A stretch of DNA of 63,452 nt, the filler included, from Chrysochromulina tobinii (Eukaryota): the NCBI GenBank assembly GCA_001275005.1. It is 4 parts of 4 records of this genome, joined end to end, with 100 filler letters (N's around TTAATTAATTAA, not from the genome) between each part and the next. Parts side by side here need not be neighbours in the genome. Positions count along the whole stretch, not along the records: positions 1 to 23,560 come from JWZX01001356.1; 3 more parts are not named here. The stretch is one strand, 5' to 3'. Positions 1 to 60,904 of the stretch are shown here, piece after piece. Both the position numbers and the translations under genes were made by a program. Each line of letters opens with the position of its first letter. Positions within the stretch are counted from its first letter, which is position 1. The notes below the pieces were generated by a model that worked only from the letters and a program-made list of their open reading frames with translations, made no database searches and had not been told where the DNA came from.

Positions 1-371
1 GCCTCGCCATCGAGCTCGCGCATGGAGTGGGGGTCTCGTGGGACGGCCGTGTCCATCGCCATTGCACGGCGGTCCCGCGGCACGTGGCGCCGAGGGATCA
101 CCTGTACGCCCTATTCCTGGGCCAGTACACGCGTGTGATGAATGCGTCAGAGCGGGTGGCGGAGCTGCGGATGGCGCTGCGCGCCCAGGTCGAGGCGCGC
201 CGCCGGCAGCGTGGGCCTGAGCTGGGCGTTGGCAGCGTGGTGTGGGCCAAGCTGTATGCCCGTGGCAGCGGGTACCTGAGGGCTCAGGGCGTGGTGGCCA
301 AGATTGACGCTGAGGGGGTCGTGTGGGTGATGTGGACTGGGGAGCGAGGGCCGGCGCGCGGGTGGTGGTAG
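1..371 (+). CDS. 3' end of a gene truncated by the window edge; tentative 2OG-Fe(II) oxygenase-like C-terminal strands followed by a PWWP/Tudor-like domain
   Basis: Frame 3 is open from the window start: LAIELAHGVGVSWDGRVHRHCT...LYALF, then LGVGSVVWAKL...GVVAKIDAEGVVWVMW; stop at 369-371. Confidence 0.35.
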   Translation, partial: LAIELAHGVGVSWDGRVHRHCTAVPRHVAPRDHLYALFLGQYTRVMNASERVAELRMALRAQVEARRRQRGPELGVGSVVWAKLYARGSGYLRAQGVVAKIDAEGVVWVMWTGERGPARGWW

Positions 372-764
372 CCGTTATGTAAGCGACCCGCATGTTCCGC
401 CCTTTCCATGACTTGTGAAGTGGGAACGGGAGCCCTTGGCTCCAGGGACCCTTGCATGCCGCTCAGGAGGTCCGGCGAGTAGACCTGACCTCTCGAGAGC
501 GGGTTGAAGTCTGTCAGAGGTTCTTAGATGTCACACCGGACAAACACTCTTCGACTCGCGCGCGGAGAACCCGCGCGCCCTTTCACCGGGACGGCGCTTG
601 ACGTAACTCTACGTGCATGCGACCGGAACGTCCCGGACCCGGTTTACCGACTCGCATGAAGAGTCACTGTGAGCGAGTGCTAGGAGGTTTTTTCACACGA
701 GAACACAAGCGCCACTGATCGTCATCGTCCGTAGATCGTCATAGCACGTCTAACAGAACAAGGT

Positions 765-2210
765 TCATGTGTCTGCTGGCGATTGCGCTTTCTGCAACCG
801 AAGCCGCGAACCCTTGGCGCGATTCGAGAGCTGATACACGCCCGACACGCTTGGCGAGGGCGTGCCTGCGGCCGCGCCTGCAGCCTCTCCGATGGCGCGC
901 GATGACGAGCTCGGCGCCTCGTCAGCCTCTCGATGGACGATGCTGCGGTAGCCAACGCCAGACTCGATGGCCGCCTTGGCGACGGCGCGCGGCTCGCGCC
1001 GCTCCCTGGCCGCCGCCGCCGACACAGCTGCGCGCACCTTCCGCTCGGGAGGTGGCGCGAGATGAGGGCACCGCTCGTAAATGGACAGCGGCTCGGCGGC
1101 GGTGGCGGCGGCTGTAGCGAGCAACTTGACGAACTGAGGCGCGACTTGCTCTTCGTAGTCGCCATCGTTGTTGTGCAGATCGCACGTGCCGTCCTCGTGC
1201 ACCGCTCTCACCACGCCGTCGAACCAGTTCAGTCCCGACGCTGCCGACACCATCGCCGCCACGGGCGACGCCAACATCACCGCCGCCACGGGTGACGCCA
1301 ACATCGCCGCGGGCGACGCCCGTGAGGTTGCCGCTGGTGCTGGCGCTGTCCCTGGAGCTGTCCTCTCCGCGGCTGGCGGTGCCGCTGGGGCTGGCGGTGC
1401 CGGCTGCGAGGCCGTCTCTGAGGGCATCGTGAGGTTGAGTCCTACAGCCTCATCCGCGTCCGCCGCGCCGATGGCGGTCTCCGCAACGACCGCACCGGCG
1501 GCTGGCGACGCCGCCTCCGTGCGAGCACGCTTCCTCGGGGGCGATACCTCTGCGGCCTTCGCCGCCTCGGCTGCCTCCACCTTCGCCGCCTCGGCTGCCT
1601 CCGCCTTCGTCGCCTCGGCTGCCTCCGCCTTCGTCGCCTCGGCTTGATCGCGTGCTCGCGCCTCGGCCTGCACGATCGCAAAAAGCAGGTCGACCTGCTG
1701 CCAGACCGAACGCTCATCAACGCTCTCCCGCTCACTGCGCTTGCGCGCGCGCGCCTCCTTGCGGACAGCCTTGTCGGCAGCGCGCTCCTCATCGTTGCGG
1801 CGCTCTCGTGCCTCTTCGGGGTCGGCTTGAGCCGCCGCCTCGTGCTTCTCCCGCTGCTTGCGCTCAAAGATAGCCGCGTCGTTGCTGATGAGCGGGCCTC
1901 CGGGCACGTCATCAGGGTGCCCGAGCATCAGCAGGGGCCACGTGCTCCGGCCATGGAGAGGCGCAAATTCGTGGCAGAAGGGCTTGCACAGGCCCTTGGG
2001 GTCCTGCACGACCAGGAGCGGGTGCTTGGATCGCTCCAAGAAGCGGCGCGCTAGCCGACCGGCCTCACCATGTGCAAAGGTGAAGTCGGGCAGGTGCGCG
2101 GACGAGGTGGCCGCAGAGCTGGAAGGCACGGCCGACGGCCGATGGATGGCAGGTGGCGCCTTGCCGGCCGCTTTCGCCTGCAGCGCCAGCTTGTGACCGC
2201 GAGAGGCCAT
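765..2210 (-). CDS. Hypothetical nuclear protein with a Dbf4 motif-M-like segment, charged/Ala repeats and a C-terminal Tudor-like domain
   Basis: 481 aa ORF; LLVVQDPKGLCKPFCHEF; repeats AEATKAEA and MLASPVAA x3; NWFDGVVRAVHEDGTCDLHNNDGDYEEQV. Confidence 0.55.
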   Translation of the reverse strand: MASRGHKLALQAKAAGKAPPAIHRPSAVPSSSAATSSAHLPDFTFAHGEAGRLARRFLERSKHPLLVVQDPKGLCKPFCHEFAPLHGRSTWPLLMLGHPDDVPGGPLISNDAAIFERKQREKHEAAAQADPEEARERRNDEERAADKAVRKEARARKRSERESVDERSVWQQVDLLFAIVQAEARARDQAEATKAEAAEATKAEAAEAAKVEAAEAAKAAEVSPPRKRARTEAASPAAGAVVAETAIGAADADEAVGLNLTMPSETASQPAPPAPAAPPAAERTAPGTAPAPAATSRASPAAMLASPVAAVMLASPVAAMVSAASGLNWFDGVVRAVHEDGTCDLHNNDGDYEEQVAPQFVKLLATAAATAAEPLSIYERCPHLAPPPERKVRAAVSAAAARERREPRAVAKAAIESGVGYRSIVHREADEAPSSSSRAIGEAAGAAAGTPSPSVSGVYQLSNRAKGSRLRLQKAQSPADT

Positions 2211-6317: not shown

Positions 6318-9300
6318 TCACGTCTTCTGGCTCTTCCTCAAATCCTTCTCCTGCTCCGAAGGGGCGCTCATCACGACCTGCGGCACAACCTCAATGATCT
6401 TGACGGTGACCTTCTGCATGTTCGGCCCATAGACAGTCTCCTCCTTTTCGGAGCGCGGCTCGAGATACGTGCACGGCGGGTAGACGCATTCGAACTCATC
6501 TGGGTATACTGAGAAGGGTTGCACGACGGCCCCCATGTGAGCAGCGGAGTCGACGCGCACCTTGAGCAGCAGTGGCATCAAGGGGGCCTCCGGATTGAGC
6601 TTCATCCGCGCCGCCACGTCAGCAAGTACGCCCTTCTCTGAGATGGCGCGGTTCATCGACATGGACATCGGGCTCAGCTCAGTGCCACCGCGCTGCTTGA
6701 ACTCGGAGGCAACATCCAGGTTGCACATGCCACGCCAAAGTACCCTCTGGGGAGTGCTCTTAGCGCCGGCGGTCGTCTCATCGTCGGGTGCGCCAGCGAC
6801 TGCCGCGGCCGCCGCGGCTGCGGCCGCCGCCGCCTCGGCTGGCCGCGCATTAGCCTTGGCCATCTCGGCCGCGCGGAGCTTTTTGATGGCCTCGGTGAGC
6901 AGTGCGACGAGGGCGGGGTACGGGTGCGGCCGCTCCGGCGAGCAGCCATCGTGCAGCGGCCGGTTGATCGACCGAAAGACGGAAGATGAGTACAAGCGAA
7001 GTGCGAGCACGTGCGCGCGCTTGAGCCCGGCCGAGGCCGCGGCAGGCAACGCCACGAAGTCGTCGAGGCTGAGGCCCCTGTTCCCCTGGTCGATGTGCGA
7101 CGCGGGCTTGAGCTTCCCAGAGTCCTCAGGCAGCGATGGCAGGCGCGAGAAGTCACCGGAGCGGTGGGAGCGCACGTAGGTGAGCCAGTCCCTCTGCGTC
7201 CAGCCGTACTCGTCCGTATCGGGCTCCGCGGCGCTCGCACACGCCGTCTCGATCTCGTCGATGATGGCGCCTTCGCCGCCCAACATCTTGGCCCTGAGTT
7301 CGTCTTCCGTCTGCAGCCCGAGGAGCTTGTGCAGCGCGGACAAGCCCTCAATCGGGCGGCCAAAGCGAATCTTCTCAGCGAGGTACTTGTTTTCAACACT
7401 CGTATGGTCGTTGATGGACGAGGCGTCGAACATCAGCTCGTTGAGCGACTTAGGTGCCGCCGCCACGGTGGCCTCGCGGTCGACCTGCATGAGGACCATT
7501 TGCTCCTGGCAGAGCGGGCATACCATCGGACGCCCTTGCAGCTCTGTACACGCCCAGCGCGTCGGGAGCCCCTTGTGCTCCGTGTGCTTGGCGCAGCCGG
7601 GGCAGCCGAGCTCGGCCACAGCCGTAAGGCCGGGAAAGTCGTGGATAATGGCGTCCGCGATCGCCTTGATCTGCAGTAGGATGGCCCATAGCTCATGACG
7701 GTTGGACTTCTTCCCGCGCATCTCCATGCACAGCTCATACTCGCCTTTCTTGAGAGCCTTTTCGTGTGTCGAAGTCTTCTCGCCCGACACGGCGCCCGTG
7801 CGCAGCTCGAGGAGCAGCAGCGCGGAATCTTTGGTGCGCGTCTCGATGAGCGCGCCGCTCTTCCAGAATCGATGATACTTGCCGAAGCCGTAGCACGAGG
7901 CCGTGAGCCGCTCCGGAATCCCAGGGGGGGCGATGCTCCCGATGCGATAGGACATGGCGAGCGTCTCGCGCGCGTCGCCGTCGGCGTGGCCCATCGCCTC
8001 ATTCCACTTCCACATAGCATCGGTCGGTTGGTTGGGCGGCAGGCGCATCGGCATCACCCAGCGGCGCCCCTGCTGCGTGTGCTCTGCAAGGAAGAGGACG
8101 CCACTCACGCTCATCATCAGCAACACCTCGGCGTAATCGTCGCGCTCCAGCCCGAGAGAATCCCACATGAGGGGGAGCAACTCCTCACGAAGCTCGCCGC
8201 TCTTGACCAGGCAATCTATGGCCGGCAGCAGCGTCGCCGCGCGCTGCTGGTCGTCGCCGATCAAGAGCGCGCCTGTGTGGCCCTTCGTGAAGAATTGGCG
8301 GTTGAGCCGGTGGTCGACGAGCGGCTTGAGCAACCGCACGACGTAATTGGGCTGCAGGTAGATGATGCCGCAGCTCGCGAAGATCTCGCCCTGGTTGACG
8401 AGCAGCTGCAGCGCGTCATCTAGCACTGCGGCGTCGCCGGCCAGCCCCATCTTGGCCGCCACCTCGTTGACCCACAACTGCTTCGCAGAGCGCACCGTCA
8501 TGTACGCGCGGGATCCAATCTCGCGGTTCTCGGCGTCCCACTCGCCGCCGCCGCCGCCGCCGCCACCGCCGCCGCCGCCGACGCCGCCGCTGCCGCCGCC
8601 GACGCCGCCGTGGGCGCTCTCGCCCGCTGCCGGCGTCGCCTCCGTGCTGTCCTTTTTCGCTTGGCGCTGATCGATTCCAACGACCTTGGCCGCTTCGATG
8701 GGATCGCGCCCGTCGCGCAACGCGCGCAGGTACGTCATGGCGAGCACCCACGTGCGAGGGATAGTCTGGCCGACCGAGGGGAGCAATGGGGGCTTGGCGA
8801 GCAGGAGGGACTCGATTTGGAGGCGCAGAGAGCTCAGCGACTGGTCGCCACCCGCGATGGATGAGACGCACATGACCTTATCCTGCACACGCAGCGAGCG
8901 TTTCTTGACATCAAGGGCGCTCTGGTGGCGCTCGACTCCCTTTTTGATCCAGTCGATCTGCTTGAGCGCCGCGTGTGCAAAGGCCTCGTGCGAACGATCC
9001 TTGGCGTCGTCCGGCACGAGCTGGTCGCAGTGTGTGAGCACGAACTGCACGACCGCGTCGGGTGCGCCGGTCGTCAGGTAGTCCATCCAACGGCCGAGCA
9101 CATTTGAGTACTCCGAATCGAGCCATTCCACGGGATTCGCGGGCACGGTCATCAAGTAGAGCGACCCCGGTACAATGTACGGCTGCAAGCCCGCCGCGTA
9201 CTGCGGCTGCCCCGCGAGGTCCCACATCGAGACGAGCACATGCCCGTTCTCCTTGGTCGAGTCTCCCACGGCCATCGAATAAATGTCGAGCTGGATGGTT

Positions 9301-12300
9301 CGCTCGTCTTTCCCTGCCGGGCGGGGCGCACCCGCACGCAGCCCGCGCTGCAGCGACGTCTTGCCGCTCTCGCCGTGACCGAGCAGGACGAGGCGCGCCG
9401 TGTTGGCCGTGGTCTCGCCGCTCTTGACGAGCTCTTGGAAATAGCGCCGGATGGCGGCGATGCCCTGCTTTGCAAGCGAGAGCGGCGGCCGCTGTAGCGG
9501 ATTGTCCCTCACATCGATGCGCTCGAGGTTCTTGAGGTTGCACACGGAGAGCACGAGGGCGCCTAGCCGGTTCTCGGCGACGTCGAGGTGCTTGAGCGAG
9601 TTGAGCTGCCCGATGGAGACGGGCAGGTAGGTGAGCAGATTGGAGCGCAGGTCGAGGGTCTCGAGGTTCACCAGCAGCCCGAGAGACGCGTGGAGCTCGT
9701 AGATGCGGTTGTTGTGCACCGAGAGCTTCTTGAGAAAGCGTAATTGGCACAGGTCTTCGGGAAGGGTGGCGAGCTTATTGCCCGAGATCGAGAGCGTCTT
9801 GAGTGAGAGCATCTTGCCGACCGAGTTGATCTCCTCGATCTGGTTCTTGTCCATCGAGAGCTTCTCGAGGCCGGCTAGCGCGCCCATGGACTCGCACAAG
9901 AGGTTGAGCTGCTCCTTTTGCTGCGCCAGGTACCGCTTGAGCGAGTCCATGCTCATCGTCTTGAGCTCCTTGTCGCCGAGGACGCGCACGTTGCTCGATA
10001 TGTCCAGGGTCTTGATCGGCGTCGTCTTCAGCTGGTCGACGATCGCCGTCAGACCTTCCGGCCCCATGTCGTTCGTGTTCACGTTGAGATCGGAGAGGGA
10101 TGTGTTGTTTGTGACGAGTGCACCGACGATGACGGAAGAGACAAAGGTGAGGCTCTGTTTCGAAAGGTCAATCGAGCGGCCGGTCTTCGCATTGAGCCCC
10201 TTGAGAAGGTGCACAGGCAGCAGCCCGCCCTCGAGCACGATCATCTGCAGCGATGGGTTCAAGCGCACCGCTTCCGCGAGCGCAAAGACGCCCTTGTAGT
10301 TCTGCTTGACGGAGAGATCCGCGTTCGGGTCGATGGTGCACAGGGGGTTGTTGGACAGGTCGACGGTCGTGATGGTAGTGTTTTTGAGGAAGGCGGTGGC
10401 CAGCGCAGTCGCGGCCAATGTCTCGAGGCCCGTGTTGGACAGATCGACGGCCGTGATCGAGTTGTTGAACTTGAGCACGCCGGCGAGCATGCGGTACGCT
10501 CCCGGCGCGAGCTGCTGACCGCGCAGCTTCAGCTCCGTCGCGTCCGATTCGATCTCGAAGGCGTAGCATTTGAGGGACGAGAGCTGGCATTGGCAGTCGT
10601 CGCTCAGCAGCAGACCACCCATCATCCACAACCCGTCGTCCTCGATCGGGTTGTCGCGCACGTCGAGCGCCGTGAGCGAGTGGTTGAGCTTGATGGCGCG
10701 TGCAATCACGTTGGCCGAGATGGCGTTGTTCGAGATGTCGAGCGACGTGATCGCACACTGCTCAGTGCGCAGCACCTCGACAAAGAGGATCCCGATCGCC
10801 GAGTCAGTCAACTTATTGGACGAGAGCTTCAGCTCCTTGAGGAACAGGCACATGCCCTGCTGCAGCGACTCGAAGAAACGAGTGCCGCCGCGGTCGCCCA
10901 GGCTAATCTTGGACAGGTTGAGCGTGCTGAGCGTCGACGCCTTCGCGCGCTGCAGCTGCTCGAGCACGCCCCCGCCCTCCGACGAGGATCCGGGGTTGAG
11001 CCGAAGCGACTTGACCGTCTGGTTGACGGCGAGCAGCGCGCCCACGACGGCGCATGCCCACCGGTGCAACGCTGCCGGCACTCGGTTGTCCTTCTTGTCG
11101 GTCTCCTCGACGGTGAACCCCACATCCCACAGGTCGATCTGCTCGACGCTCCGATTGCCGTTGAGCTCCTGAACGGGCAGGACGGCCAACGCGACCTCAG
11201 AGCCACGCCCTGGGTGCTCGAGGTGGAGCGACTGGAGCGTCGAGTTGGTTTGGAGCGCTTCGGCGAGCGCCTCCACGTGCTCGGCCACCACGGAGCGGAG
11301 CGTGAGCTTCGTGAGGGACGAGTTTGAGCGGAGAAGTCCGCAGAGCAGTACAAAGGAGCGGAGCGACCGGACGTGCTCGCGATCTCGCAAGTCGTACACG
11401 TGGCTGGTCATGCCCGGGTGAAGCTCATAGATGTCACAGTAGCCCACCTTGCCCTCCTTGTTCGCGAGGAGAGCGCGGCCGAGCTCCTCGCGCTCGGCCT
11501 CGCCGAGGTCGCCGCCGGGCGCCATGGTGATCTCGGTCAGGGTCTTGTTGGCCTTGAGCACGCCGGCGAGCATGACCGCGTCGCACGCCTGCGCGGACTT
11601 CCACGCGAGCGTGCTCGTCTTCTCATAGAGGGCAAAGATGTCGCACTGCAGGAAACAGAGCTGATTGCCGCTCTCGAGCAGCGCGCGCCCTATCATCTCC
11701 TTGGCTCGAGAGTCCAGATGAAACGTGCGCTCCATACGCGACATGGGCTCCGCCTCGACGATGCCAATCGATTCCAAGCGGAGCCCTTTGACGCGTAGGA
11801 GCTCGGAGAGCGCCGGCTCGCGCCCCGGATTGTTGTACGACACGTCGATGCGTCGCATCGCATCACACGTACGGAGCGCCTGGCAGATGATTCGAATCCC
11901 ATCGGGGCCAAGCCCATTGTTGGATACATCCAGCGTCGTGAGCGTCTTGTTCATAGCCAGGCCGCGCCCGAGCGTGCGCAGCAAGTGCTTGAGCCCGCCG
12001 AGCACATTAGATCCCAAATCGAGCGAGGTGAGATTGGGTGCCGTCATCAGCATGCGCGCGATGCCCGCCGCGTCCGTCTCGCGCTTGCCCACGCCGTTGC
12101 CGGCCAGGTTGAGCGTGACGAGCTTCTCATTCTTCTCCATGATGAGCCAGAGCGCCTGCAGCCCCGTCTCTCTCAGCAGCGCATCTTGCTTCGAAAAGTC
12201 CCATGAGGGTCTCCGCTTGGCGAGCAGACTGCCCAGGAAGCCGCCGGCGATGCGGCACGTGTTGTTCATGAACGGGTTGTTCAGGAACTTGGCGGCGGTC

Positions 12301-14045
12301 GCGTCGGTCGCCCAGCCTTCCCAACCATCTTGGGCCTGAATCAGCAGGTGCTGCGCGAAAAGGCCCTCCTGGAAGGAGAGGTGCTTGAACTGGTACTGCG
12401 CGGCGGCCACCTCGGTCTGCACCTCGAGCGTCTTGGTGAGCGGCATCCCGTTGTCCTCCTTGTTCAGGTGGAGCCAGAGGGTGAGACCCTCTGGGTTGGG
12501 TAGGTCAAGCAGCAGCGCCTGCGCCACGTGTGCCGACGAGAACTCGCGCCGCCCATTGATCTGGTTCATCACGGCCACGTTGCGCAGCATTGAGAGGCCG
12601 AACGACTGAGCGCGCTCACCAAGGAGCATCTTGAGGTTCGCATTGACGAGCATCATCACGGTGTCGACGAGCTTCTTGGGCATGAGCAGCTCGATGCGGT
12701 TGAGCTCGGTGCGCTGCACCTCGGGCTTGACCGCCTCGCGCAGATAGTGCGAGCCATGCTTGAAGACCTCGTACACCTCATTGGCCGTCAGCTTGAAGAC
12801 CTGCTTCTCCTTCGACTCGCCTTTCGCTACGCTATTGTTCTCCTCCTTTTTGACCTTCGCGTCCATCCCATCATTGAAGCGCAGCTCCTCAAACTTCGTC
12901 TGTGCCTTGCGCGACGGCTTCTTTTCGCGCTCCTTGACTGGAGCGCTCGTCTCAACACCAACCTTGGTGTCCTTCGCGTCCTTGCCCTTGGCGTCCCCAG
13001 TATCCTTTGCCGCCATCGCGGCGCCACGGTCAAGGTTGAAGAGGCGCATCCACTCGTGCACGAGGTGATCGGTCGAGGTGAGGTCTCCGGACACCTGGCT
13101 GCGCAGCAGCCGCTTTGAGATGGCACTCTCGATGCCGAGCTCGTAGAGCTCGATGCGGTTCGAGGGCAGCTTCGTCAGGTCCTCGCCGCCCGAGGTGAAG
13201 ATGAGCACGAGCAGCGAGAGCAGCACGGGGATGCCGGTCGCGTCCACGAGGAAGACGAGCTTCTCCTCGAGCAGCTTATCGAGCTCAGCCTCGGGATAAT
13301 GGCCGGCGAGCCGCTGCCGGAAGAAGTGGTAGTGGCCGTACGCCTCGTTCTTCGGATCGAGTGCGATCTTCATCACGTCCTCGTAGTGCAACTCGGCCTC
13401 GCCGTACATGAAGAAGTCGCGGAATGAGATTTTGAGCACCGCCACCGCGAGCCGAAAGTGCGTCGGGTCCAGATCCTCGAACTTGTTGCGCAGTTGCACC
13501 ATCGTGATTTCGACGCACTCGCCCTCAACCTCTTCACCCTCTTTGTTCACGTAGAACTTCTTCTTCGCAGGCTTTGCGATAATGTTGCCGTCCGCGTCGA
13601 GCTTCGGAGGACCGCCGTCAAGCAGCCCGTGCTTGATGATCTCTGGCCATTTGGCGCTGTCGTTGTCGTCCACCGGTAGTGGGGCCGAGGTCTGCAAGAG
13701 CTGAACCAGCTGGATGATCTGCGTGCCCGTCTTGCACGGTATGCGCGCACGCACCACGTCTGTCACGCATGCCTCGACAAGCCCGCCGCCCTCCGAAACG
13801 CGTCCACCAAGAGGCTCGTCCATTGCCTTCTCGTGGCAACGCACCGGCTCCTTGAGCTCGCCAAATATGGTATCGTTCACGAGCGCACTCGCTTCTGCTG
13901 GGTCTCGCGCCACCTCCTTGAGCAGGAACTTGAGCACGAAGGCAAAGACGGGCAAGAACTCCTCAGCTAACATGTACAACTCGTCGGTCCGCGCGACGAT
14001 GCGCTGCCAGCATGCGGCCGCTGAGATCCCCTGCTTCGCCTTCTG

Positions 14046-14104
<59 letters not shown>

Positions 14105-17100
14105 TTGCCTCGTCCGAGGTCTTGTCTTGAGCCTTCCAGTGCAGCAAACCGAGGGGACTCGCTTGCACATCCGCCGTGCCCAGCTTTCGGATCAGCCTGG
14201 CCAGGTTGAGCGCCACGCGGTGGCGCAGCTCCATGCCATCGGAGCCGCACATATCCTCCAGGATCTTCGCCTCGAGTTCACTGGCAGGCGCCGAGGCGGG
14301 CGAAATAGAGAGCACTCGGTCGACTCGATCGAGCAGCGAGATGCCGCAGCGCTGCGGTGTGTGGCTCTTCATCTGCCTGTCAAGCTTCTCGAGGTACTTG
14401 GACGTTGGCGTCTCCCCTGTGCCGAGCTCACGCAGCACCGTGCTGTGCGTCGATGGCGAGCGCAGCTGAGCAGCTGGGTCAAAGTAGGTCACAATGTCCT
14501 TGGGGCGTGCGCCCTCCAAAGTAGGGTCGGCCGCGGACGCGCCTTGGCTAGCCCCAGGCTCGGTTGGTGCGGACGCCGGCTTCGACTGCACCGCGCCTGC
14601 CTTACTGTCGAGTATCTCCTTGTCCCGGAGCTCCATCGTACCTTTTCGTTCCCTGGCGGGCTCCCTGGCGCCACTCTCGCCCTTGCGCGGCGAGCGCCGC
14701 GTTGCCTCGGCCGAAGCGGCGATCGCCGCGTCCTTGTTCTCGTCGGCATCCTCGCCAACAGAGTCGACCTTGTGCAGGCTGTCGACGCAGAGTAGGCCCT
14801 CGAGCTCCGTGCGAACAGACTCCTTGATCTTATTGTACGCTTCGTCGAGCCACTTGCGCACCTCCCCGAGCGAGAGCAGGTGGTCGAAGAACTCGGAGCC
14901 TTGCATCTGGATGTTGATCACGCGTCGCTGCTGCTCGTTAGTGAGCTCGTTCAGGTTCATGATGACGAAGCGCGACCGGTACAAGCTGAGTGTGACGCCC
15001 TCGGGACGGCTCGTTACCAACACGCGGTTGCCGCTCGGTACGAGCTCCGAGTGCACGAACTTTTCGACCTGGTCGCGCAAGCCGGCGGCCTCGTCGACGC
15101 CGTCGAGGAGCACCACGAGCGCGCGCATCTGGTACGCCTGCATGAGCATCGCGCACCATGACTCCATCTTCTTGCCGCTGTACACGGACTCGATGTACCG
15201 AGGCAGCAGTTGGAAATCCCCTTCCTTGTCGCGCTGGCCCTCGCGCACTAGGTACACGATGCGCTGCACGAAGACTACGACCGGTACGAGCCGGATGCCA
15301 TCCTTGTGCCCAGTGCCACCGCCAGATCGAAGCCGGTCGGCGAGAGTGTACACCGCCTGCTTCGCCATCCACGTCTTGCCAGTGCCCGGCCCGGCGCGCA
15401 CGAGCACCGGCTGCGCTGAATGCGAACCCATTGATCGGTTTGGCGAGGGGATGAGCAGCAGCGTCACCAAGTCGCGCACGTCGTTGACGCGCCAATTTTC
15501 GGGCACCGCGCCGGCCGCATTGTCCTGCACGTCGGTCGCGGTGGACACGTGCAGCGTCTGGTCCTTGATGCGCAACAGATTACCCGTGATCGCGTCCTCC
15601 ACCATCGCCTCGCGCTCGACAATATCCTCAAGGTAGTTGAGGCGCGCCATCTCGAACGCAGACACGTCTTTGAAGCGCTGCACCGAGTGGTTGAACTCAT
15701 TAAGGGCCGTCGTGATGAGCACCGCCTCTCCCGCTAGAGACGAGACCATCGAACGCACTGTGCCGTCCTCCATCAGCCGATTCTCGAGCACGTTGACTAC
15801 TGTCCGGTTGGAGAGAGTACCCACTTTGTCCGTCGTCTGCGAGAAGCCCGAGCGCACTATGAGCGGCTTTTGTGAGCTCACCACGAGCTGCGTGTTCGCC
15901 GGCATGTTCACCGCGAGGTCACCACGAACCGCCGACGATGAGCCGTCGGAACTGGCTAGCTTGAAGTACTCCAAGACTTTCCCTGGATTGGCCTCGTCCG
16001 GCTTGCACACCGTCACCCAGCCCGTCGTCGTCGAGCCCTGCACCAGCAGCCGGTGGCGCGAACCCTCCTTGATGTCTGTGGGATTCTGCATCCCCTCAAA
16101 CTCCTTTCCCTGGCCGAGGGCCCACTCCTTCACCTCAGCGTCGCAAGCGGCTCCCTCATGCTGATAGAGAAGCCGCGTGCCCGGCGGGTGTCGCGGGTTG
16201 GTCGTGCGCACGACCGTCTGTGGCGTCGGGTCGATGATCGACTCGGAATTGATCCCATCGACCTTGACGACGACAGAGTCGTCCCTCAGCACTCGCTGCA
16301 CCGTCGCGCATCGACCTTCGGTGCCCGCCCGGCTTGCGCATCGACAACCGCGCGCCTTCCGCGCACCCGTACGCGAGCCAGGGGTTCACCTTGAGCAACG
16401 CCAGATGCAACTCGAGCGCGCCCGTTTGCGGATTCTCCACCCTCCAGTCGACGCGCAGCTCGAGCTCGCCGTCGCCCTGCAGCCCGTCGTGCTCGAGCCC
16501 GTGCTCAGCGCCCACCCGCCACTCATTGGCAAACTCGATCCGGTCGAGGAACTCGATGCCCTTCGAGGGTGCGATCTTCAGGCGGCCGATGACCGCAAGC
16601 GATTTGGTCGATCGCAGGTCGAACGCCTCGGCGTCGGGTAGCGTCGAGATGTCGCCCTGGTACAGCTCGTACCCCGAGCGGTAGCAGTTGAACATGAGGA
16701 TCATCGCCGCAGGCTCTGTGACGCATTCGTGCCGGCTCGGCTGACCTTCGGGTCGACCAGCTGGTCGTTTCGTCTCGTCGCGTGCTAGCCTGTTGAGAGA
16801 GCCCTGCCCACCCGCCTGCGCACGCATCCGCTTCATGAGCTCCTCGGCCCTCTTCTTGTCCTCATCAGACTCTTCGGCTGCGCCGGCCGCCTCCTTCTTC
16901 TTCTCCTTCTCCGCCGCCGCCGCCGCCGCCTTCTCCGCATCCTCCCGCTGACGCTTCTCAAACTCGCGGCGCGCCTTGGCCTCAGCGGCCAGCTTGCGCT
17001 CCTTCTCCTCCTCGAGCTTGGCCGCGGCCGCCTTTTCGGCCGCCGCGCGCTGCTCGTACTCCTTCTTGGCCTTCATCTTGGCCTCCGCCTCCTTTCGCTC

Positions 17101-18777
17101 AAGCTCAATTCGCTTGACCTCGAGCTCCATCTTCGCCTTCTTCTGCGCCTCCTCTCGCGCCTTCTTCTCGTCGAGCTCCTTCTTCGCCTTCTCGTCGGCG
17201 AGCTTCCGAGCCTTCTCTTCAAAGGCGCGCTTCTGCTCCATCGCGCGCTCCATCGCCGCCTTCTCCTCCGCCTGCTGCTTGGCCAAGAGCGCCACTGGGT
17301 CCGAGACGCCAGTCCTACTCATCTCGGGCGAGGCGCCGCGGGCGGTCGCACCGCCGCGGGCGGTCGCACCGCCGCGGGCGGTCGCACCACGCGGGCTCAA
17401 CGACATCGCCTGCATCGGCGAGGTGGCGCGCGCGGTCGAAGCGCGATGCGACGGCATCGGGAAACTCTTCGAACGATTCATCTCCGCTGGCGCCGACGCG
17501 CTCGACGGGATCTCTCGCTGTCGAAGGTTTTCGATCATGTCCTTGGTGAGGACGGTGACCCAGCCGACGGCAGGACCCTGCCAGTTTCCCTCGAGCGCAT
17601 ACGCCGCGCGCCACGACCCGTCGGCCGTTCGGCGCACCTCGAGTAGATGGATCGAAGCGCCAGGGGCTAACTCGCGAGCTCGAGCTGAGCTCAAGTCGAA
17701 CTCTGTTCGTGCCTGCAGCGCCTTCTTCGCACTCACCTCCATCGTCGGTCGGCCCGTCGTTTTGAGGTTGATCGCGCCCGTCGCCGTGATCGACGTGATC
17801 CAGCCATACGGGGCCAGCTGATTGTCGAGGGCGACGCACACGCGGCGCGAACCGTCCGAGTTCTCGCGCTCCTCGACGACGGCACAAGTCGCGTTCGGCC
17901 CGAGCTCACCCGCCTTGTCGCTTGTGAGCTCGAAGGCTTTGCGCACGAGAGCAGGCTTCGTCGCGACGATCAGACCGAGGGGGCGCGAGGCGAGTATCAG
18001 GCGCGCGGCCGCCGGTGGCACGTCGTTGTAGTTCATGGTCGACGGCCCTCCGGTGGTCGACTGCGCCGAGGCCGACGCACCCGCACCGTTGCTGCTGCCG
18101 GCCCGACGCCCCACCAGAAGGGCCAGGTTCTCCGTGCCATCCTTGGTGACGGCTGTGACCCATGCCTTGATGGTGCTGGCGCCCTCAGGCGCGTACCCGA
18201 TGCGCCAAGCGCCGTCGGCCGTCGCGCGCGCCTCGAAAGCATGGATGAACGCATTGACCGCCAGCTCGCCTGCCTTGCCAGACGTGAGATCGAAAGCGTC
18301 GCGCGCGGCCAGTGGCTTGGCGGCGATGACCTGGAGGACAGGGTGGCCGAGCTCATGAAGTTGCTTCTTGCCGTCCTTGGTCACGCCGGTGAGCCATCCG
18401 AGGATGATCGCGGAGCCTTCGGGCGTGACAGCCATTCGCACCGCGCCGTCAGCCGTCTGCCGCGACTCGATTGCGTGCACCGCCTTGCCGCTGGGCAGCT
18501 CGCCCGCCTTGGCTGAATTGAGATCAAAATCGACACGCAGCTGCAGCGGCTTCGAGCCGGACACCTCAAAGAGAGGGCTGATTGCACACTGAATAATCGG
18601 GTAAATCGGCCTGCTTTCTGGGACCGAGCTCAGCCGATCGTTGCTGGACTTCCCACCTTCGTCCTTTGGAGAAGGGCGTTTACTGGCCCTGCGCGAGCTC
18701 GATTTGGCTCTCGCTGAGTCGGAAGACTGGGTATCCGCAGCAGCCATCTTGGTCTTGCTGAGCTTTAAAGGTTTCAT
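6318..18777 (-). CDS. Giant NLR/ROCO-like protein: SH3-like repeats, coiled coil, NACHT with RelA/SpoT-like insert, LRRs, ROC-COR, ADP-ribosyltransferase (frameshift near 16320)
   Basis: Walker A AGPGTGKT (~15373-15396), Walker B VLLDGVDE (~15090-15113), VTSRP, DATGIP, FKHLSFQE (~12370-12390), many LxxLxLxxN repeats (~9490-12150), ROC GHGESGKTS (~9355-9381), WDLAGQ and LTHCD, ART motifs LRLYS..INRPL, LWRG, MSMS, EFE (~6480-7010); ORFs 16156-18849 and 6318-16301 overlap. Confidence 0.85.
14047..14103 (+). repeat. (CCG)n trinucleotide tract encoding poly-Gly on the minus strand
   Basis: Uninterrupted CCG run; a similar Gly-rich tract lies at ~8544-8610. Confidence 0.9.
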
Positions 18778-19453
18778 TTTTTCCAAAGCCGTCCACGCCT
18801 GAATCAAGTTTTTTCCAAACAAAGACGTCAGGTTCAGTTCGTTACACACAAGTGTATGTATGTGTGTGAATGTGAATGTGTGTCTGTGTGACTTCTAACA
18901 CAAGTCAGGTACATGCCGGGCATGGTGCGCGCGATGCGGAGGGAATAACGTGCGGACCCAGGTACTGTGGTGTCGTGTCGTGAAATCTTGTGTACTTGAA
19001 TATTTCGCAACGACGCCGCCCGGGGCGACTTACGGGGCGACCGCCGTATCGACACTGTGAAGGTCTGTCTTCTGTCGGTATCCATGAAAGGACCGAGGTA
19101 GGACCGATGCCAGAGGCCAGTAACCTATGAGGCTGACAGAGGTGAGAGACCGGAAAACCGGAATCGGGGGTCGTGGAGAATCTGGCCCGATGGCTTCACA
19201 TGTCCGGGCGCGATTTGCTTATAATTTGTGGCATCCTAAATTGCGAATTGCATATAGTTTGAGATAGGGTCAGTTGAATCATAAAGCTTCGTACGATTCC
19301 GTAGCAATTTACCGGTAGGTTGCAACGGGCCGTAACTCCCCATGCTCATAGCTTGCGACCTGGTGCCTCTGCCGCTCTGCAAAAAGTGAGGCGGCTGCGC
19401 GGCCTAACTGTTCGCGTTGTCTGAACAACTACAAACGCAAGCCCGGGTACGCG

Positions 19454-20695
19454 ATGGTCATGGTCTGCGTTAGATCCCAGCGCGGCTCTCACCTGCCACC
19501 TTCCTTTGGCATATCCGCGCTGACGCTCCTAATTGCGTTTTGTCCACTCATTTTCGCTGGTTTGTCGCCGTGTGCGCCGAGTGTCGAGTGCCGTGCGAAC
19601 ATCCTCGATTGGTCGGTGCGGCATGGGCCTGGCTTCATCTCGCGCAATCTCGGGTTGAAGCGGCTGACGGTCGAGCTCGACGCCATCCTGCCCTGCACCC
19701 AGCCTGCAAACGGAGATGCGGTCCCTGTTGTCCTTGTAGACGTGGGAGCTGGAATCCACGGGCTGCAACCGCAATTCATCAACTCTGCGAAAAGGCTGCA
19801 CGAGGACGATAGCGATTCGTTGTGGCTCCTCGGAAGCTTTGGTAGCCGCGGGCATGTGCACGCCTTCGAGGCCAACGCGATTAAGGCGAATGAGCTCCGA
19901 TTAGCAGCCGCGACGCGCAGCCGCACCGCGAACTTCACTGCGCATTATACGGTGCATACCGTCGGCGTGGGGAGAACTAACGGTCAGACCCATGTCAATG
20001 AGTGTGGCCCTTGGAATATATGGTCCATCGAGGCGAACCGAAGGAGTTCGGTACGTGGGTGCAAACAGGGCGCTGCCATCGCACTGACTACCATGGATGC
20101 GTTTCTTGCGTCGCTTCCCCTCCGCACGGTGCCTCTCTACATCAAGGTGGACGTCGAAGGAGGCGAGTGGGACGTGCTTGCGGGGATGCATTCCACTCTG
20201 CTGAGCAAGCGAGTCGCGCTTATGTCGTTTGAGTACGCCGTATTCTGGCACAAGTCGTTTCATTCCAATAGGGAATTGTCCGCCGCGCAGAGGCAGAATG
20301 CGAGCAACGTGAGCCTGTATCGCTTCCAGAAGACGTTGACTGGATATGGCTATGACACATACCTCATCAATGCCGGAGACGCCACGAGCGGTGTCGTGCT
20401 TGTGCCGGTGCACGGCGACTTCTGGCACAATGACCTTGAGATCTGCTTTAACCGTTCGCACTTCTACCAAAGAAGCCACTGCTGGAATGACGTGCTCGCT
20501 GTGCGGCAAGGCGACACGTGTGTGCGAGAGGCGCTGTTTGGCAACGCACTGCGCCGGACGCACGAGTCGCTAGGGAGGGAAGTGGACGCTATGCGTTTGG
20601 GTGGCGCGACTGGCCACTCAGTGGTAGCATGGATGCCGCCGTTCGCGGCACATTGCAACTGTTTGTGGGGACCCACAGAGCACACGTCCGTGTAG
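19454..20695 (+). CDS. FkbM-family SAM methyltransferase with N-terminal signal/TM segment
   Basis: VLVDVGAG, VHAFEAN, TTMDAFL, YIKVDVEGGEWDVLAGM, SFEY, GYDTY. Confidence 0.85.
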   Translation: MVMVCVRSQRGSHLPPSFGISALTLLIAFCPLIFAGLSPCAPSVECRANILDWSVRHGPGFISRNLGLKRLTVELDAILPCTQPANGDAVPVVLVDVGAGIHGLQPQFINSAKRLHEDDSDSLWLLGSFGSRGHVHAFEANAIKANELRLAAATRSRTANFTAHYTVHTVGVGRTNGQTHVNECGPWNIWSIEANRRSSVRGCKQGAAIALTTMDAFLASLPLRTVPLYIKVDVEGGEWDVLAGMHSTLLSKRVALMSFEYAVFWHKSFHSNRELSAAQRQNASNVSLYRFQKTLTGYGYDTYLINAGDATSGVVLVPVHGDFWHNDLEICFNRSHFYQRSHCWNDVLAVRQGDTCVREALFGNALRRTHESLGREVDAMRLGGATGHSVVAWMPPFAAHCNCLWGPTEHTSV

Positions 20696-45001: not shown

Positions 45002-45840
45002 TCATCCGGGCTGAGCCTTGGTGTCGGGCTCCTTCCATGCCACGTCCAATCCAGATCGCACCTCGCGCAGCGCCGTGAGTGCCTCGCGCCATTCGCTACC
45101 GTTCTCCTCGGCGGCGCCGTTCCCAAACACCTCGAGGCACTTGAGGCCCGGTGCGCCGCCATCGCGCAGCGCCTCAGTCAGTGCCGCCAGGTGGGCAGGC
45201 TCGTCCAAGCCGCACGCGCCGATGTCGAGGGTGTGCAGGGACGGTGCGGCCACACGTAGCGCGTCGGCCAGTCGTCGGCCGCCGTCGCGCGCCTCTCCGC
45301 CCACTGCCGGATTATCAAAGAGGGAGAGGGTGAGGAGGGGTGCACCGAGGCGCACTAGCGCCGCGGCGCCGGCCACACCGAGCCGATTCGAGCGCGCATC
45401 GAGCTCGGTCAAGGAGCTCCAAGACGCCGTGATGGGCACCTTGGGCGCCGGGATGGGCACGATGGGCGCCGTGGTGGGCGCCATACCGGGCAGCGCGCCT
45501 ACAGCGCCCTCGGAAAGTGGGACGCTTTGGGGCACGCCCCCCAACGCCACGGCGCCCACCACGGCGCCCATGGCGCCCCCCAACGCCACGGCGCCCACCA
45601 CGGCGCCCATGGCGCCCCCCAACGCCACTGCCACCTCATCACGCAGCGCATTCCCCCCGAGGCAGAGCTTGCGCAGCGCTGGCGCAGTCCTGAGCGCCGC
45701 CACGAGCGCCGCCGTGGGCGACTGCTTCGGCGGCAGCGGCGGCGACGGCGGCGGCGGCGGCGTGCTATCGGCCAGTGCCATGCTGGGGAGGGCCGACTCG
45801 ATGGAGGTTGTGGTGAGCGGCGACGTCGTCAGTGACTGCA

Positions 45841-45903
<63 letters not shown>

Positions 45904-46780
45904 GAGCACAAACGGGAGGCGGCGCGAGCGGCGGCGTGACCCAGAGCCCCGGGTTGTTTGCGAGCTGCAGCTCAAGCAAGCAGCCATGCGAGGCGATCGC
46001 CAGCGCGAGCGCCGCGGCGGCGCCCTCGCCCAGCTCGCATGCATGCGCATCTAAGACCGTGAGGGCCGGCAGTGCACCGAGTAGCCGCCCGAGAGCCGCG
46101 CCCAACCCGCCGCTGGGGTCCATTTTGCTTTGACCGATCGACGGATTGGACGCCACGTGGAGCGTGCGGAGCGCGCGCAGGAAGCCGCCGGCGGCGGCGG
46201 CCGTCGCGGTCGTCGCAGCGGTAGTGAGAGCGTCGAGGGCCGTGCCATCCAGAGCGCAATCGCACAGCCCAAGAAATTCGAGCTCAAGGCTGAGGACGCC
46301 TGGGGTAGCGAGCACGCGTGCGCCGGGCACGCCGAGCGGGTTACGGCCGAGCTCGAGGTGGCGCAGCTGCGGGCAATGTCGAAGCAGCCGGCCCAATGCG
46401 TCCGCATCTGGCGCTCCTAGGCCCTTGAGCCCGAGGTCGAGTGTGTGCAGCGCGATGTGGCTGTCGCCCAGCGCGTCGCAGAGCAGGCTCACCCCAGCAC
46501 CTCCGAGGCTCGCGTTCCCAATGGCCAGGTGCCGAATCGCGCACTCGTCACCGCTGGCGAGCAGCGCGCCCAGGGCCTGCAGGCTCACGACGCCGAGAGC
46601 GTGGCCCGAGGCACGAAGCTCTGTGAGCGTTCGGTTGCCGCGCAGCGCCGCGAAAAGCGCCACGCACTCGGCATCGCCGAATGCACGAAACGGCAAGATG
46701 TGCAGGCTTGGTGTCGTGCGTGCCTTGGATATGAGTTCCGCCGCGGGGTTGCCGTCCGCAGAGGGCTTGCCCCAAGCCAT
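45002..46780 (-). CDS. RNI-like leucine-rich repeat protein with Pro/Thr low-complexity inserts
   Basis: LRHLELGRNPLG, LLELQLANNP, LTELDARSNRLG; (GTC)n tract ~45842-45887 and a 42-bp tandem repeat ~45533-45628; start uncertain. Confidence 0.8.
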
Positions 46781-46989
46781 GTGCGCTGCGCTTCCTCTCG
46801 GCCCACTCTCGGCCCCGTCGGCACGCGACGCGACTCGCGACACGCGAAGTCGATGTCAATCAAGAACATAACATGTTCGTGATGAAAGAAGGAAGCTGAA
46901 TGCTGGGTATGTTCGATGTTTACGAGCTTAGCGTGCGTAATTTTCGCGCCTGTCGGCAATGGGCGCCAAGAAACACACTGGCGTCCCTC

Positions 46990-60700: not shown

Positions 60701-60904
60701 TTTGTACCGTGCGATTCCAAGCTCTACACGGCACGGCGCCGGCAGCAGAGGCTCTCGTTCTGCGTCTGGGCCGTCATTTCGCAAGACTCGGGCCAGCTGT
60801 TGCGTGCGCTCGAGGCGTTCAGCACGCGAGAACGGCTCCAGCTGGCGAGCCAACGGCTGCGAGTGCTGCGGCAAGAGCTCGAGGGTAGCTCGGCGGCTGA
60901 CTGA
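57788..60904 (+). CDS. DusA-like tRNA-dihydrouridine synthase in frame with a LON N-terminal substrate-binding-like domain
   Basis: VAPL, LQLGGS, NLNVGCPS, YGAALM, SIKCR, IVHAR, NGG, GIMCGR; then VLLPHQQAAFNIFQP...VCQGLSR...LEAFSTRERL. Confidence 0.8.
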   Translation: MRLRPFALLSLLMLASCALGGAKLSGAHAMKFHVAPLQCYTNRHLRAFLRFLSHDAVLWTEMEKAEDLASLSQQALARRLRHIDDVGGGTSVLQLGGSHMGTLLVASRHARTFRYSELNLNVGCPSIETGGASYGAALMRDAAHTHTLAATMAEAFGAPVSIKCRLAAHDAVLADGKVPITHYETLAAFAETVTADGAVDHLIVHARAAVLGGLSPSKNRCVPPLLPEYVHRLAAEFPDVRITLNGGLGWGESERILQRARQAGSRQPGAIDGIMCGRAVLRSPLRLVGIDAANGLTPFDIEALGARCIDAVRRYQAYAVRTLAATDEDVPSITVPLLLLLEELREAAAEGAEAAAEGAEGMVADESDALGETHFETHLEKRAHWSLPETTLVCVFIAVWEATVAILEATGRGGKGARSSRATAPNESAALDELSFRQLANLIAQATGKQVANKVVRNRKEDIGSAAAAAVPKGTAGLGRRDGRRVSTFVAMQVRSRGRRVTMQVGMSGGDLEDGRDAARNAQVQALKKLLYQPSAPKSAEAAVADVGRRAGDDEGAAAAGLLRNVPLARFQMVLLPHQQAAFNIFQPQLLHCFETLLATAPPWRYVHVLLPGGADNLANPAYALPGLADGSGVEEGAEEGGEGKGDEGGGGAPGPLATLSGTLMEIVWWSRLPDATLSLVCQGLSRAVVLRGTQDIPYARADVLLLPDAEQIAASARSLPGKQARPWTGASSVRGIRGIRWIGAPIGPVGAPIGPVANEIVQQSRNETGATSGSADRAGASAALVAAHGAVLARAIAEDVCWRPFEFAPVTAPVRLDRLVPGLAAFASFAPAAAAAAAACASAAALTKTEAGTATGAATTALAADAARGGVQWRLVRAVLAQGDELAAAEPTEADDAEALALVEDELWIELDAFLRALAMQRGGSLPAPAQILALLPPSPRAWPADFVLSRVAEALREKTEAFGVDLTEPFVPCDSKLYTARRRQQRLSFCVWAVISQDSGQLLRALEAFSTRERLQLASQRLRVLRQELEGSSAAD

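What the first reader, a model, noticed from the sequence alone, without database searches (positions are those of the whole stretch)
13330..14900. RelA/SpoT-like nucleotidyltransferase domain inserted inside the NACHT module
Seen: between the NACHT core (ending ...LNELTNEQQRRVI) and its helical domain (DATGIPVLLSLL) lie ~550 extra residues containing LKEPVRCHEKA, DVVRARI, LRNKF, HFR and GEAELH. Known: small RelA/SpoT-type synthetase-like domains follow K-x3-R-x2-EK / D-x-x-R / NxF / (Y/F)R / E-x-Q. Inference: a degenerate copy (ExQ changed to EAE) acting as an integrated nucleotide sensor, decoy or second-messenger maker inside the switch.
Basis: partly seen in the sequence, partly recalled or inferred. 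Interest (0 to 1): 0.78.

Follow-up and report, generated by a model that had tools for sequence, protein, structure and literature searches.

The report
Alarmone-enzyme domain inside algal NLR switch
A giant immune-receptor-like (NLR-type) protein, likely from a haptophyte alga, carries a domain predicted to fold like the bacterial alarmone-making enzymes (RelA/SpoT), inserted in the middle of its ATP-driven switch; the same insertion recurs across a large family of relatives, and it likely lets the switch control an ATP-using enzyme whose product is untested and likely not ppGpp.

Summary
Confirmed and wider than reported. The insert is real, unspliced in RNA contigs, and its core (14021-13305, minus strand) folds as a RelA/SpoT synthetase: pLDDT 88.7, and the top 29 structural matches are all RSH enzymes (Z 8.8-13.0; next family 7.5). 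It sits inside helical domain 1, not between NBD and HD1; the flanks re-form a NOD2/NLRP3-like module. It marks an expanded family (192 clusters at 50% identity); every named member with the insert is a haptophyte. Of 29 relatives picked by the NBD alone, 11 carry the full domain, 13 a decayed one and 5 none. 'Degenerate' is only half right. The catalytic Asp and Glu and the ATP-side residues are kept, and 50 of 53 wider-family rows keep ExQ. The window's own 15-member clade has swapped six likely acceptor-side residues together (ExQ to invariant ExE), which looks like a changed substrate rather than decay. The host gene is about 4,170 aa: SH3-like repeats, NACHT(RSH), LRR, Roc-COR-like, ART. 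RelA domains fused to NACHT ends are known in fungi; ten literature searches found no insertion inside the module. Activity is untested.

The parts
13305..14021 (-). RelA/SpoT synthetase-fold domain (aa 789-1027 of the stop-to-stop ORF)
   Evidence: AF2 pLDDT 88.7; Foldseek rows all RSH, best E 1.4e-4; VIA Z 13.0, rmsd 3.5, 153 aligned to RelQ 5ded
13827..13853 (-). Syn1-like basic helix K845-x3-R849-x2-E852-K853 (ATP side, inferred)
   Evidence: (84-87% conserved)
13743..13760 (-). Syn2-like strand D876-V-V-R879-A-R881
   Evidence: D 96%, R879 93%, R881 83%; each 15 of 15 in own clade
13521..13667 (-). Clade-specific loop of about 50 aa inside the domain
   Evidence: occupied in few rows of the family alignment; 25% identity among orthologs
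13437..13496 (-). RxKN-F strand and Syn3-like P-T-H-F-R loop; Q964, R966, L979, V983 in place of the family's R, K, N, N
13383..13400 (-). Syn4-like E996-A-E998-L-H1000 (family consensus E-x-Q-V-H-H)
   Evidence: E996 92%; position 998 Q 74% / E 20%; E in 15 of 15 of own clade
14022..14831 (-). N-terminal part of the insert: disordered linker (14714-14502), helical subdomain shared with orthologs (14498-14106), 19-Gly run (14102-14046)
   Evidence: pLDDT profile; matches in orthologs; run length
14943..15422 (-). NACHT nucleotide-binding domain: Walker A GPGTGKT, Walker B LLDGVDE, VTSRPEG
   Evidence: Pfam NACHT E 0.0097, under cut-off; relatives above cut-off
14832..14942 (-). First helices of HD1, before the insert
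   Evidence: kept in insert-free relatives; helices in model
13101..13292 (-). Rest of HD1, after the insert (LEEKLVFLVDAT-GIP-VLLSLL)
   Evidence: AAA+ and NLR structures align across the insert
12213..12620 (-). Winged-helix / HD2 region with FKHLSFQE
9456..12128 (-). Leucine-rich repeats
   Evidence: Pfam LRR_4, LRR_6, LRR_8 above cut-off
9024..9395 (-). Roc GTPase domain
   Evidence: Pfam Roc E 2.9e-9, above cut-off
7476..8528 (-). COR-like region ending in a CxxC pair; assigned by position after Roc and by conservation in orthologs
   Evidence: no Pfam COR hit
6456..7034 (-). ADP-ribosyltransferase-like C-terminal domain
   Evidence: Pfam ART E 4.3e-4, under cut-off; matched in 6 of 8 long orthologs
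16156..18849 (-). 5' part of the same gene (repeats of a possibly SH3-like domain, K/E-rich coil, conserved beta domain); split off in the window by one extra base at 16324
   Evidence: 4 of 4 runs lack that base; 4 of 4 orthologs tested align across the frame change

Best explanation
The insert is a predicted RelA/SpoT synthetase-fold domain, looped out of helical domain 1 of the NACHT switch in a family of likely haptophyte NLR-type proteins, and it likely works as an ATP-using pyrophosphate-transfer enzyme that the switch would turn on, with a product that is likely not ppGpp. Shown: sequence, family-wide position, insert-free sister proteins, conserved Asp/Glu and basic residues. Predicted: the fold, and that the flanks re-form a normal NACHT module. 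Inferred: HD1 moves with the NBD when a STAND protein exchanges ADP for ATP and oligomerises (general NLR knowledge), so a domain held by two HD1 helices would be uncovered or clustered on activation, making it an effector built into the switch. In the window's clade the Mg-ATP donor side is kept while six likely acceptor-side positions changed together, so this copy most likely still binds Mg-ATP and acts on a different acceptor from its ExQ paralogs, beside a second possible output, the C-terminal ART domain.
For: Fold. Position in HD1: pTM 0.75 over 1105 aa; NOD2 5irm Z 10.7, rmsd 5.6, 341 aligned over model 1..1096; RelP 6fgk on 502..752, Z 10.0. Family. Catalytic pair D876+E996 in 14 of 15 clade rows and 49 of 53 other rows; K845/R849/K853 in 13/12/14 of 15 and 46/45/46 of 53, so the donor side is no less conserved in the clade. 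Fixed new residues in the clade: E998 15 of 15, H976/R978/H1000 15 of 15. Not ppGpp: no His at the SxH site described as recognising guanosine, and Arg at D+3 and His at E+4 match two of three Apk signatures (PMC12226406, passages). NACHT Walker A pattern in 51 of 56 and Walker B in 53 of 56 NBD rows. Strain differences in the ORF are 29 silent of 32. A NACHT gene is up-regulated in virus-resistant Gephyrocapsa huxleyi (PMC12489294, passages; not shown to be this family).
Against: No activity data. The window domain has no Pfam RelA_SpoT hit at E up to 1; only 4 of 106 relatives hit it (best 7e-5). Profile versus E. coli RelA gave probability 1%, so residue equivalences rest on motif order and spacing, not on a superposition I could inspect. 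The clade lost R964, K966, N979, N983, Q998 (0 of 15 each; the window has Arg at 966) and H1001 (1 of 15), which also fits loss of catalysis. Two long orthologs (P0159, P0163) lost most of the basic helix, and P0163 lost the Glu. The window copy also lacks the family's Y859 and F863. 18 of 29 NBD-selected relatives have a decayed or absent domain, so the NACHT persists without it. The G-loop Tyr needed by CapRel (PMC9712102, passages) is Phe. An immune role is inferred from architecture only.
Confidence: 0.5

Rival explanations
1. In the window's clade the domain is a pseudo-enzyme: it binds ATP or a pyrophosphorylated nucleotide and passes that signal to HD1 as a built-in sensor, while ART or Roc supplies the output; only the ExQ paralogs may be catalytic.
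For: Joint loss of six conserved positions in the clade that has Roc and ART; Syn1 decay in P0159 and P0163; extra departures in the window copy; position on the hinge of the switch.
Against: The metal-binding Asp/Glu pair and the basic helix are as conserved as in ExQ paralogs. RelA is active with EXDD in place of RXKD, a change that shifts acceptor preference (PMC3153485, passage). An invariant new Glu suggests selection on chemistry, though it could also serve binding.
Confidence: 0.3
2. The domain is a relic or structural spacer in this clade, kept for folding or protein contacts and on its way to the half and empty states seen in sister clades.
For: 13 decayed and 5 empty of 29 NBD-selected relatives, several close to the window's clade in the NBD tree; identity among orthologs 42-50% against 74-83% for NBD, HD1 and WH.
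Against: Charged, active-site-type residues D876, R879, R881, N967, R978, H1000 are 15 of 15 across orthologs whose domains are only 42-50% identical to the window's.
Confidence: 0.1
3. The domain is an integrated decoy that mimics a host or microbial RSH protein targeted by a virus or bacterium.
For: Analogy with integrated decoys in plant NLRs and candidates in fungal NLRs (PMC12258605, passages); the family is expanded and variable.
Against: 25 of 27 homologs with long N-flanks and 42 of 43 with long C-flanks are NACHT proteins, so no free-standing model protein was seen; one fixed insertion site across the family; decoys usually resemble their model closely (general knowledge). No whole genome was available to search.
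Confidence: 0.06
4. It is a conventional (p)ppGpp synthetase fused into an NLR.
For: Best structural matches are RelQ and RelP; RxKN in paralogs resembles RXKD.
Against: No SxH in Syn3, Phe for Tyr, His for Arg after ExQ, Arg for Ser in Syn1 (against RelA). RelQ, RelP, CapRel and Tas1 lie within about 2 Z units, so the fold does not set the product.
Confidence: 0.04

Closest known systems
Small alarmone synthetases RelQ/RelP and the SYNTH domain of Rel/RelA (Pfam PF04607)
   Same: Predicted fold (Z up to 13.0); order and spacing of basic helix, Asp strand, aromatic loop and Glu strand
   Different: 9-14% identity; no SxH; Phe for Tyr; E-x-E-x-H for E-x-Q-x-R; embedded in a NACHT module of a eukaryote
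Apk (p)ppApp synthetases (Tas1/Apk1, Apk2) and tRNA-modifying toxSAS (CapRel, FaRel2)
   Same: Same fold (Tas1 Z 10.7, CapRel Z 12.1); conflict-type context; Arg at D+3 and His at E+4 as in Apk; CapRel is an immune enzyme gated inside one polypeptide (PMC9712102)
   Different: No GxN; no immunity or antitoxin partner seen; gate would be a NACHT switch
Fungal RelA_SpoT-NACHT NLRs (PMC4986451, PMC12258605) and bacterial NACHT proteins with alarmone synthetase effectors (bioRxiv 10.1101/2022.07.19.500537)
   Same: RelA-type domain and NACHT in one protein, read as an effector
   Different: In fungi the domain is N-terminal to an intact NACHT (the bacterial passage lists it as an effector without position); here it interrupts HD1, in haptophytes, with LRR and in this clade Roc-COR-like and ART domains
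NOD2 / NLRP3 / NLRC4 NACHT-LRR receptors
   Same: NBD, HD1, WH and HD2 superpose as one unit (Z 9.8-10.7, 314-341 residues); LRR follows
   Different: About 490 extra residues in HD1; no CARD or PYD hit; 14-17% identity
Roco proteins (LRR-Roc-COR)
   Same: LRR, Roc and a following conserved region
   Different: Preceded by a NACHT module and followed by an ART-like domain

Membership tests
RelA/SpoT synthetase (RSH SYNTH) | SYNTH fold | tested here: met
   Predicted model; ranks 1-29 of VIA are RSH, Z 8.8-13.0, next family 7.5; Foldseek 18 matches at E up to 0.001
RelA/SpoT synthetase (RSH SYNTH) | Catalytic Asp (Syn2) and Glu (Syn4) | tested here: met
   D876 and E996 present; equivalence to RelA D275/E335 by motif order and spacing; their catalytic role is recalled
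RelA/SpoT synthetase (RSH SYNTH) | Syn1 basic motif R-x-K-x3-S-x3-K | tested here: inconclusive
   Both Lys kept with the same spacing; first Arg absent and Ser replaced by Arg
RelA/SpoT synthetase (RSH SYNTH) | Gln of E-x-Q | tested here: not met
   Glu in the window and 15 of 15 clade rows; Gln in 50 of 53 other rows
RelA/SpoT synthetase (RSH SYNTH) | Pfam PF04607 score | tested here: not met
   No hit at E up to 1; 4 of 106 relatives hit, best 7e-5
(p)ppGpp synthetases proper | Syn3 Y-x-S-x-H (guanosine recognition) | tested here: not met
   F-R-L-A-V in the window, F-R-N-x-L in paralogs; motif role from PMC12226406
(p)ppGpp synthetases proper | Makes (p)ppGpp | not testable with these tools
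   Needs an assay
Apk (p)ppApp synthetases | Syn2 RYT and Syn4 YH signatures | tested here: inconclusive
   RAR and LH/VH: Arg and His match, the rest does not
Apk (p)ppApp synthetases | Syn3 GxN | tested here: not met
   LxV in the window, NxL in paralogs
NACHT-LRR (NLR-type) proteins | Walker A, Walker B, HD1 GxP, winged helix, LRR | tested here: met
   the window's own Pfam NACHT score is under the cut-off
NACHT-LRR (NLR-type) proteins | Ligand-triggered oligomerisation and immune output | not testable with these tools
   Inferred from architecture
Fungal RelA_SpoT-NACHT NLRs | RelA_SpoT domain N-terminal to the NACHT | tested here: not met
   Domain lies inside HD1
Roco proteins | Roc domain | tested here: met
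   Pfam Roc 37.6 bits, cut-off 27
Roco proteins | COR domain after Roc | tested here: inconclusive
   Conserved region in orthologs, no Pfam COR hit, not folded

The most novel reading that the evidence does not exclude
Haptophyte algae have an expanded NLR family whose NACHT switch carries its own alarmone-type enzyme inside HD1. On sensing a virus or bacterium it makes a non-ppGpp pyrophosphorylated product (a (p)ppApp-like nucleotide, or modified tRNA or protein), and the ExE clade has evolved a second specificity: a eukaryotic nucleotide-signal or suicide system wired directly into the NLR hinge.
Probability: 0.4. Interest if true: 0.9.

Novelty: new variant of a known kind. Interest (0 to 1): 0.74.

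Why it matters
NLR effectors and integrated domains are described at the ends of the NACHT module; an enzyme domain held between two helices of HD1 is a different wiring, and natural full, decayed and empty versions give ready controls. Antiviral defence in bloom-forming haptophytes is poorly understood, and this family, annotated only as 'nlrc3', RanGAP or NACHT protein, gives a concrete and assayable output candidate. It also extends toxin-like RelA/SpoT enzymes into a eukaryotic signalling scaffold, where Pfam misses them.

Tried and rejected
Splicing of the insert: rejected. Chance motifs: rejected. Sequence searches of the PDB with the domain or its profiles found nothing meaningful, nor did hhalign with E. 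coli RelA or PADLOC. The Pfam Phage_TAC_15 hit (E 0.045) is taken as noise. ESM Atlas gave a RelA_SpoT (24% of members) cluster at rank 12, score 0.92, with recognition below the tool's mark: a lead only. No relative in one GTDB scan or in phages by tblastn, both with the single paralog P0017 and of low sensitivity. One cluster member is labelled as an archaeal MAG protein (P0337, 2.3-kb contig, NBD only); I treat it as probably misbinned. Sequence search of an insert-free member against the PDB matched almost only LRRs. Foldseek on the whole module gave no match at E up to 0.001. The complex prediction of the domain with the two NACHT halves gave no answer: score 0.00, alignments not used, partner fold uncertain. 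No whole genome is held, so paralogs could not be counted; depth spikes over NBD, HD1 and WH only hint at several. The careful RSH tree did not finish; both trees are quick trees with weak deep branches. Three look-ups of earlier findings returned nothing. PMC6883173 and PMC7489905 were not held.
Full report
Setting. The window is eukaryotic by content (ArfGAP, HMG-box, EF-hand, WD40 genes) and no whole genome is held. The finding lies in a minus-strand ORF 16385..6318 of 3355 aa with LRR and Roc hits above cut-off and weak NACHT and ART hits. All 4 runs laid, 3 RNA and 1 DNA, lack one base at 16324, and 4 of 4 orthologs tested align across the frame change there, so the upstream ORF 18849..16156 belongs to the same gene of about 4,170 aa. 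Of 32 coding differences listed for a second strain, 29 are silent (14 further differences were not shown). Named relatives with the insert are from Chrysochromulina tobinii, C. parva and Prymnesium parvum; most relatives carry no taxon, so 'haptophyte' is inferred.

The observation. Every quoted peptide is present at the stated place. The motif set is not found in 20,000 shuffles of the insert. RNA contigs cover the insert colinearly, and one bridges the Gly repeat. The only joint that skips it is a paralog contig also present in DNA. Contigs of RNA libraries may include DNA; the near absence of RNA cover at 19053-19500 is a weak hint that these are transcripts, and the transcript-derived P0229 has the same layout.

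The fold. Sequence tools barely see it: no Pfam RelA_SpoT hit for the window, 4 of 106 relatives at E up to 0.1, nothing in the PDB by sequence, 1% by hhalign with RelA. The AlphaFold model from 106 sequences is confident (pLDDT 88.7, pTM 0.83). All 24 Foldseek PDB rows shown are RSH synthetases. VIA ranks RSH entries 1-29 (Z 8.8-13.0; RelQ 5ded Z 13.0, rmsd 3.5, 153 aligned; CapRel 12.1; Tas1 10.7), ahead of TdT/pol mu at 7.5 (a second look at Foldseek's matches, not an independent search). Among viral models the top rows include phage proteins named RelA/SpoT and Tas1.

The family. A search of 1.84 billion representatives gave 192 proteins at E up to 0.001, 150 listed; with one more, 151 were analysed. 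Fifty-one have an NBD upstream, 67 have HD1 or WH downstream, 31 have both; 25 of 27 with long N-flanks and 42 of 43 with long C-flanks are NACHT proteins (local E-values on a small set, hence lenient). As a control I searched with the NBD alone (74 hits). Of the 29 that reach HD1 or WH, 11 hold both halves of the domain, 13 only a recognisable C-half, and 5 none. In the quick NBD tree (56 rows) the decayed and empty rows fall among full rows in several places (3 changes each), which fits an old insertion with repeated decay, but the tree is unrooted and its deep branches are weak.

The insertion point. Empty relatives keep the helix after the NBD (SEFFDHLLSL in the window) and the helix before the GxP motif (LEEKLVFLVDAT), with a gap of 39-136 aa against 547 in the window. 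The insert is therefore inside HD1. The 1105-aa model (pLDDT 79.4, pTM 0.75) agrees: NOD2, NLRP3, NLRP7 and NLRC4 align over model residues 1 to about 1096 in single superpositions (Z 9.8-10.7), AAA+ ATPases over 5..780, and RelP over 502..752. Z values for so long a model are modest and close to the AAA+ rows.

The active site. By motif order and spacing against E. coli RelA: K845=K254, R849=S258, K853=K262, D876=D275, R881=R280, F977=Y319, E996=E335, position 998=Q337. This mapping is inferred, since coordinates could not be inspected; the roles of Syn1/2/4 on the ATP-Mg side and Syn3 on the acceptor side are partly recalled and partly from passages of PMC12226406, PMC9712102 and PMC3153485. 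Among 68 full-length domains (of 161 hits) the window falls in a 15-row clade with SH-aLRT 100 that holds all 8 long Roc-bearing orthologs. Clade versus the other 53 rows: D876 15/50, R879 15/47, R881 15/42, E996 14/52, K845 13/46, R849 12/45, K853 14/46, R978 15/53, H1000 15/43; but R964 0/46, K966 0/42, N979 0/30, N983 0/38, Q998 0/50, H1001 1/42. The donor side is kept, the likely acceptor side is rebuilt, and position 998 is Glu in all 15. Clade members are related, so each such change may be one event. Neither group has the guanosine-reading SxH; both have Arg at D+3 and His at E+4 as in Apk enzymes, but not GxN. Against activity: P0159 and P0163 lost the basic helix, the window copy lacks Y859 and F863, and many sister proteins lost the domain.

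Mechanism. I commit, at 0.5, to an ATP-using pyrophosphate-transfer enzyme gated by the NACHT switch, with a non-ppGpp product and a changed acceptor in the window's clade. A nucleotide-binding sensor is the main rival (0.3). Gating is inferred from position; nothing here shows contact or regulation.

Literature. [quoted passage not shown] Ten searches showed no report of an RSH domain inside a NACHT module or of this haptophyte family. The library lacks most subscription papers and no supplements were read.

Verdict. A real, family-defining architecture: new variant of a known kind, interest 0.74.

Noticed in passing
window 16324: One extra base in the assembly, absent from 4 of 4 runs, splits one gene of about 4,170 aa into two ORFs.
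   Followed up: yes
window 6456-9395 (-): Roc, COR-like region with a CxxC pair, and an ART-like domain with R-S-E-type motifs (labels recalled) follow the LRRs; ART is matched in 6 of 8 long orthologs, and the Roc P-loop and G3 motifs vary among them.
   Followed up: partly
window 17550-18600 and 15600-15940 (-): Several copies of a possibly SH3-like repeat (Pfam SH3_3 E 0.19 for one copy) precede the NACHT; copy number varies among relatives.
   Followed up: partly
window 14039-14111: GCC repeat coding a 19-Gly run just before the domain; a contig of run X16 has 37 letters where the window has 73.
   Followed up: partly
P0064 1265-1329 and P0088 514-580: In two relatives EF-hands lie directly before the RSH domain, in P0064 inside the same insert, suggesting calcium input.
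   Followed up: no
P0191, P0196, P0200, P0204, P0205, P0208, P0212: A 7-member clade keeps a full-length insert (432-488 aa) with the catalytic motifs gone: a likely true pseudo-enzyme version.
   Followed up: partly
P0120: An RSH-like domain of this family with PDZ and a dynein-stalk-like coil and no detected NBD.
   Followed up: no
window 45002-46843 (-): A second LRR_6-type LRR gene in the window.
   Followed up: no
window 57788-60904 (+): One ORF with a dihydrouridine synthase domain and a weak LON substrate-binding domain.
   Followed up: no
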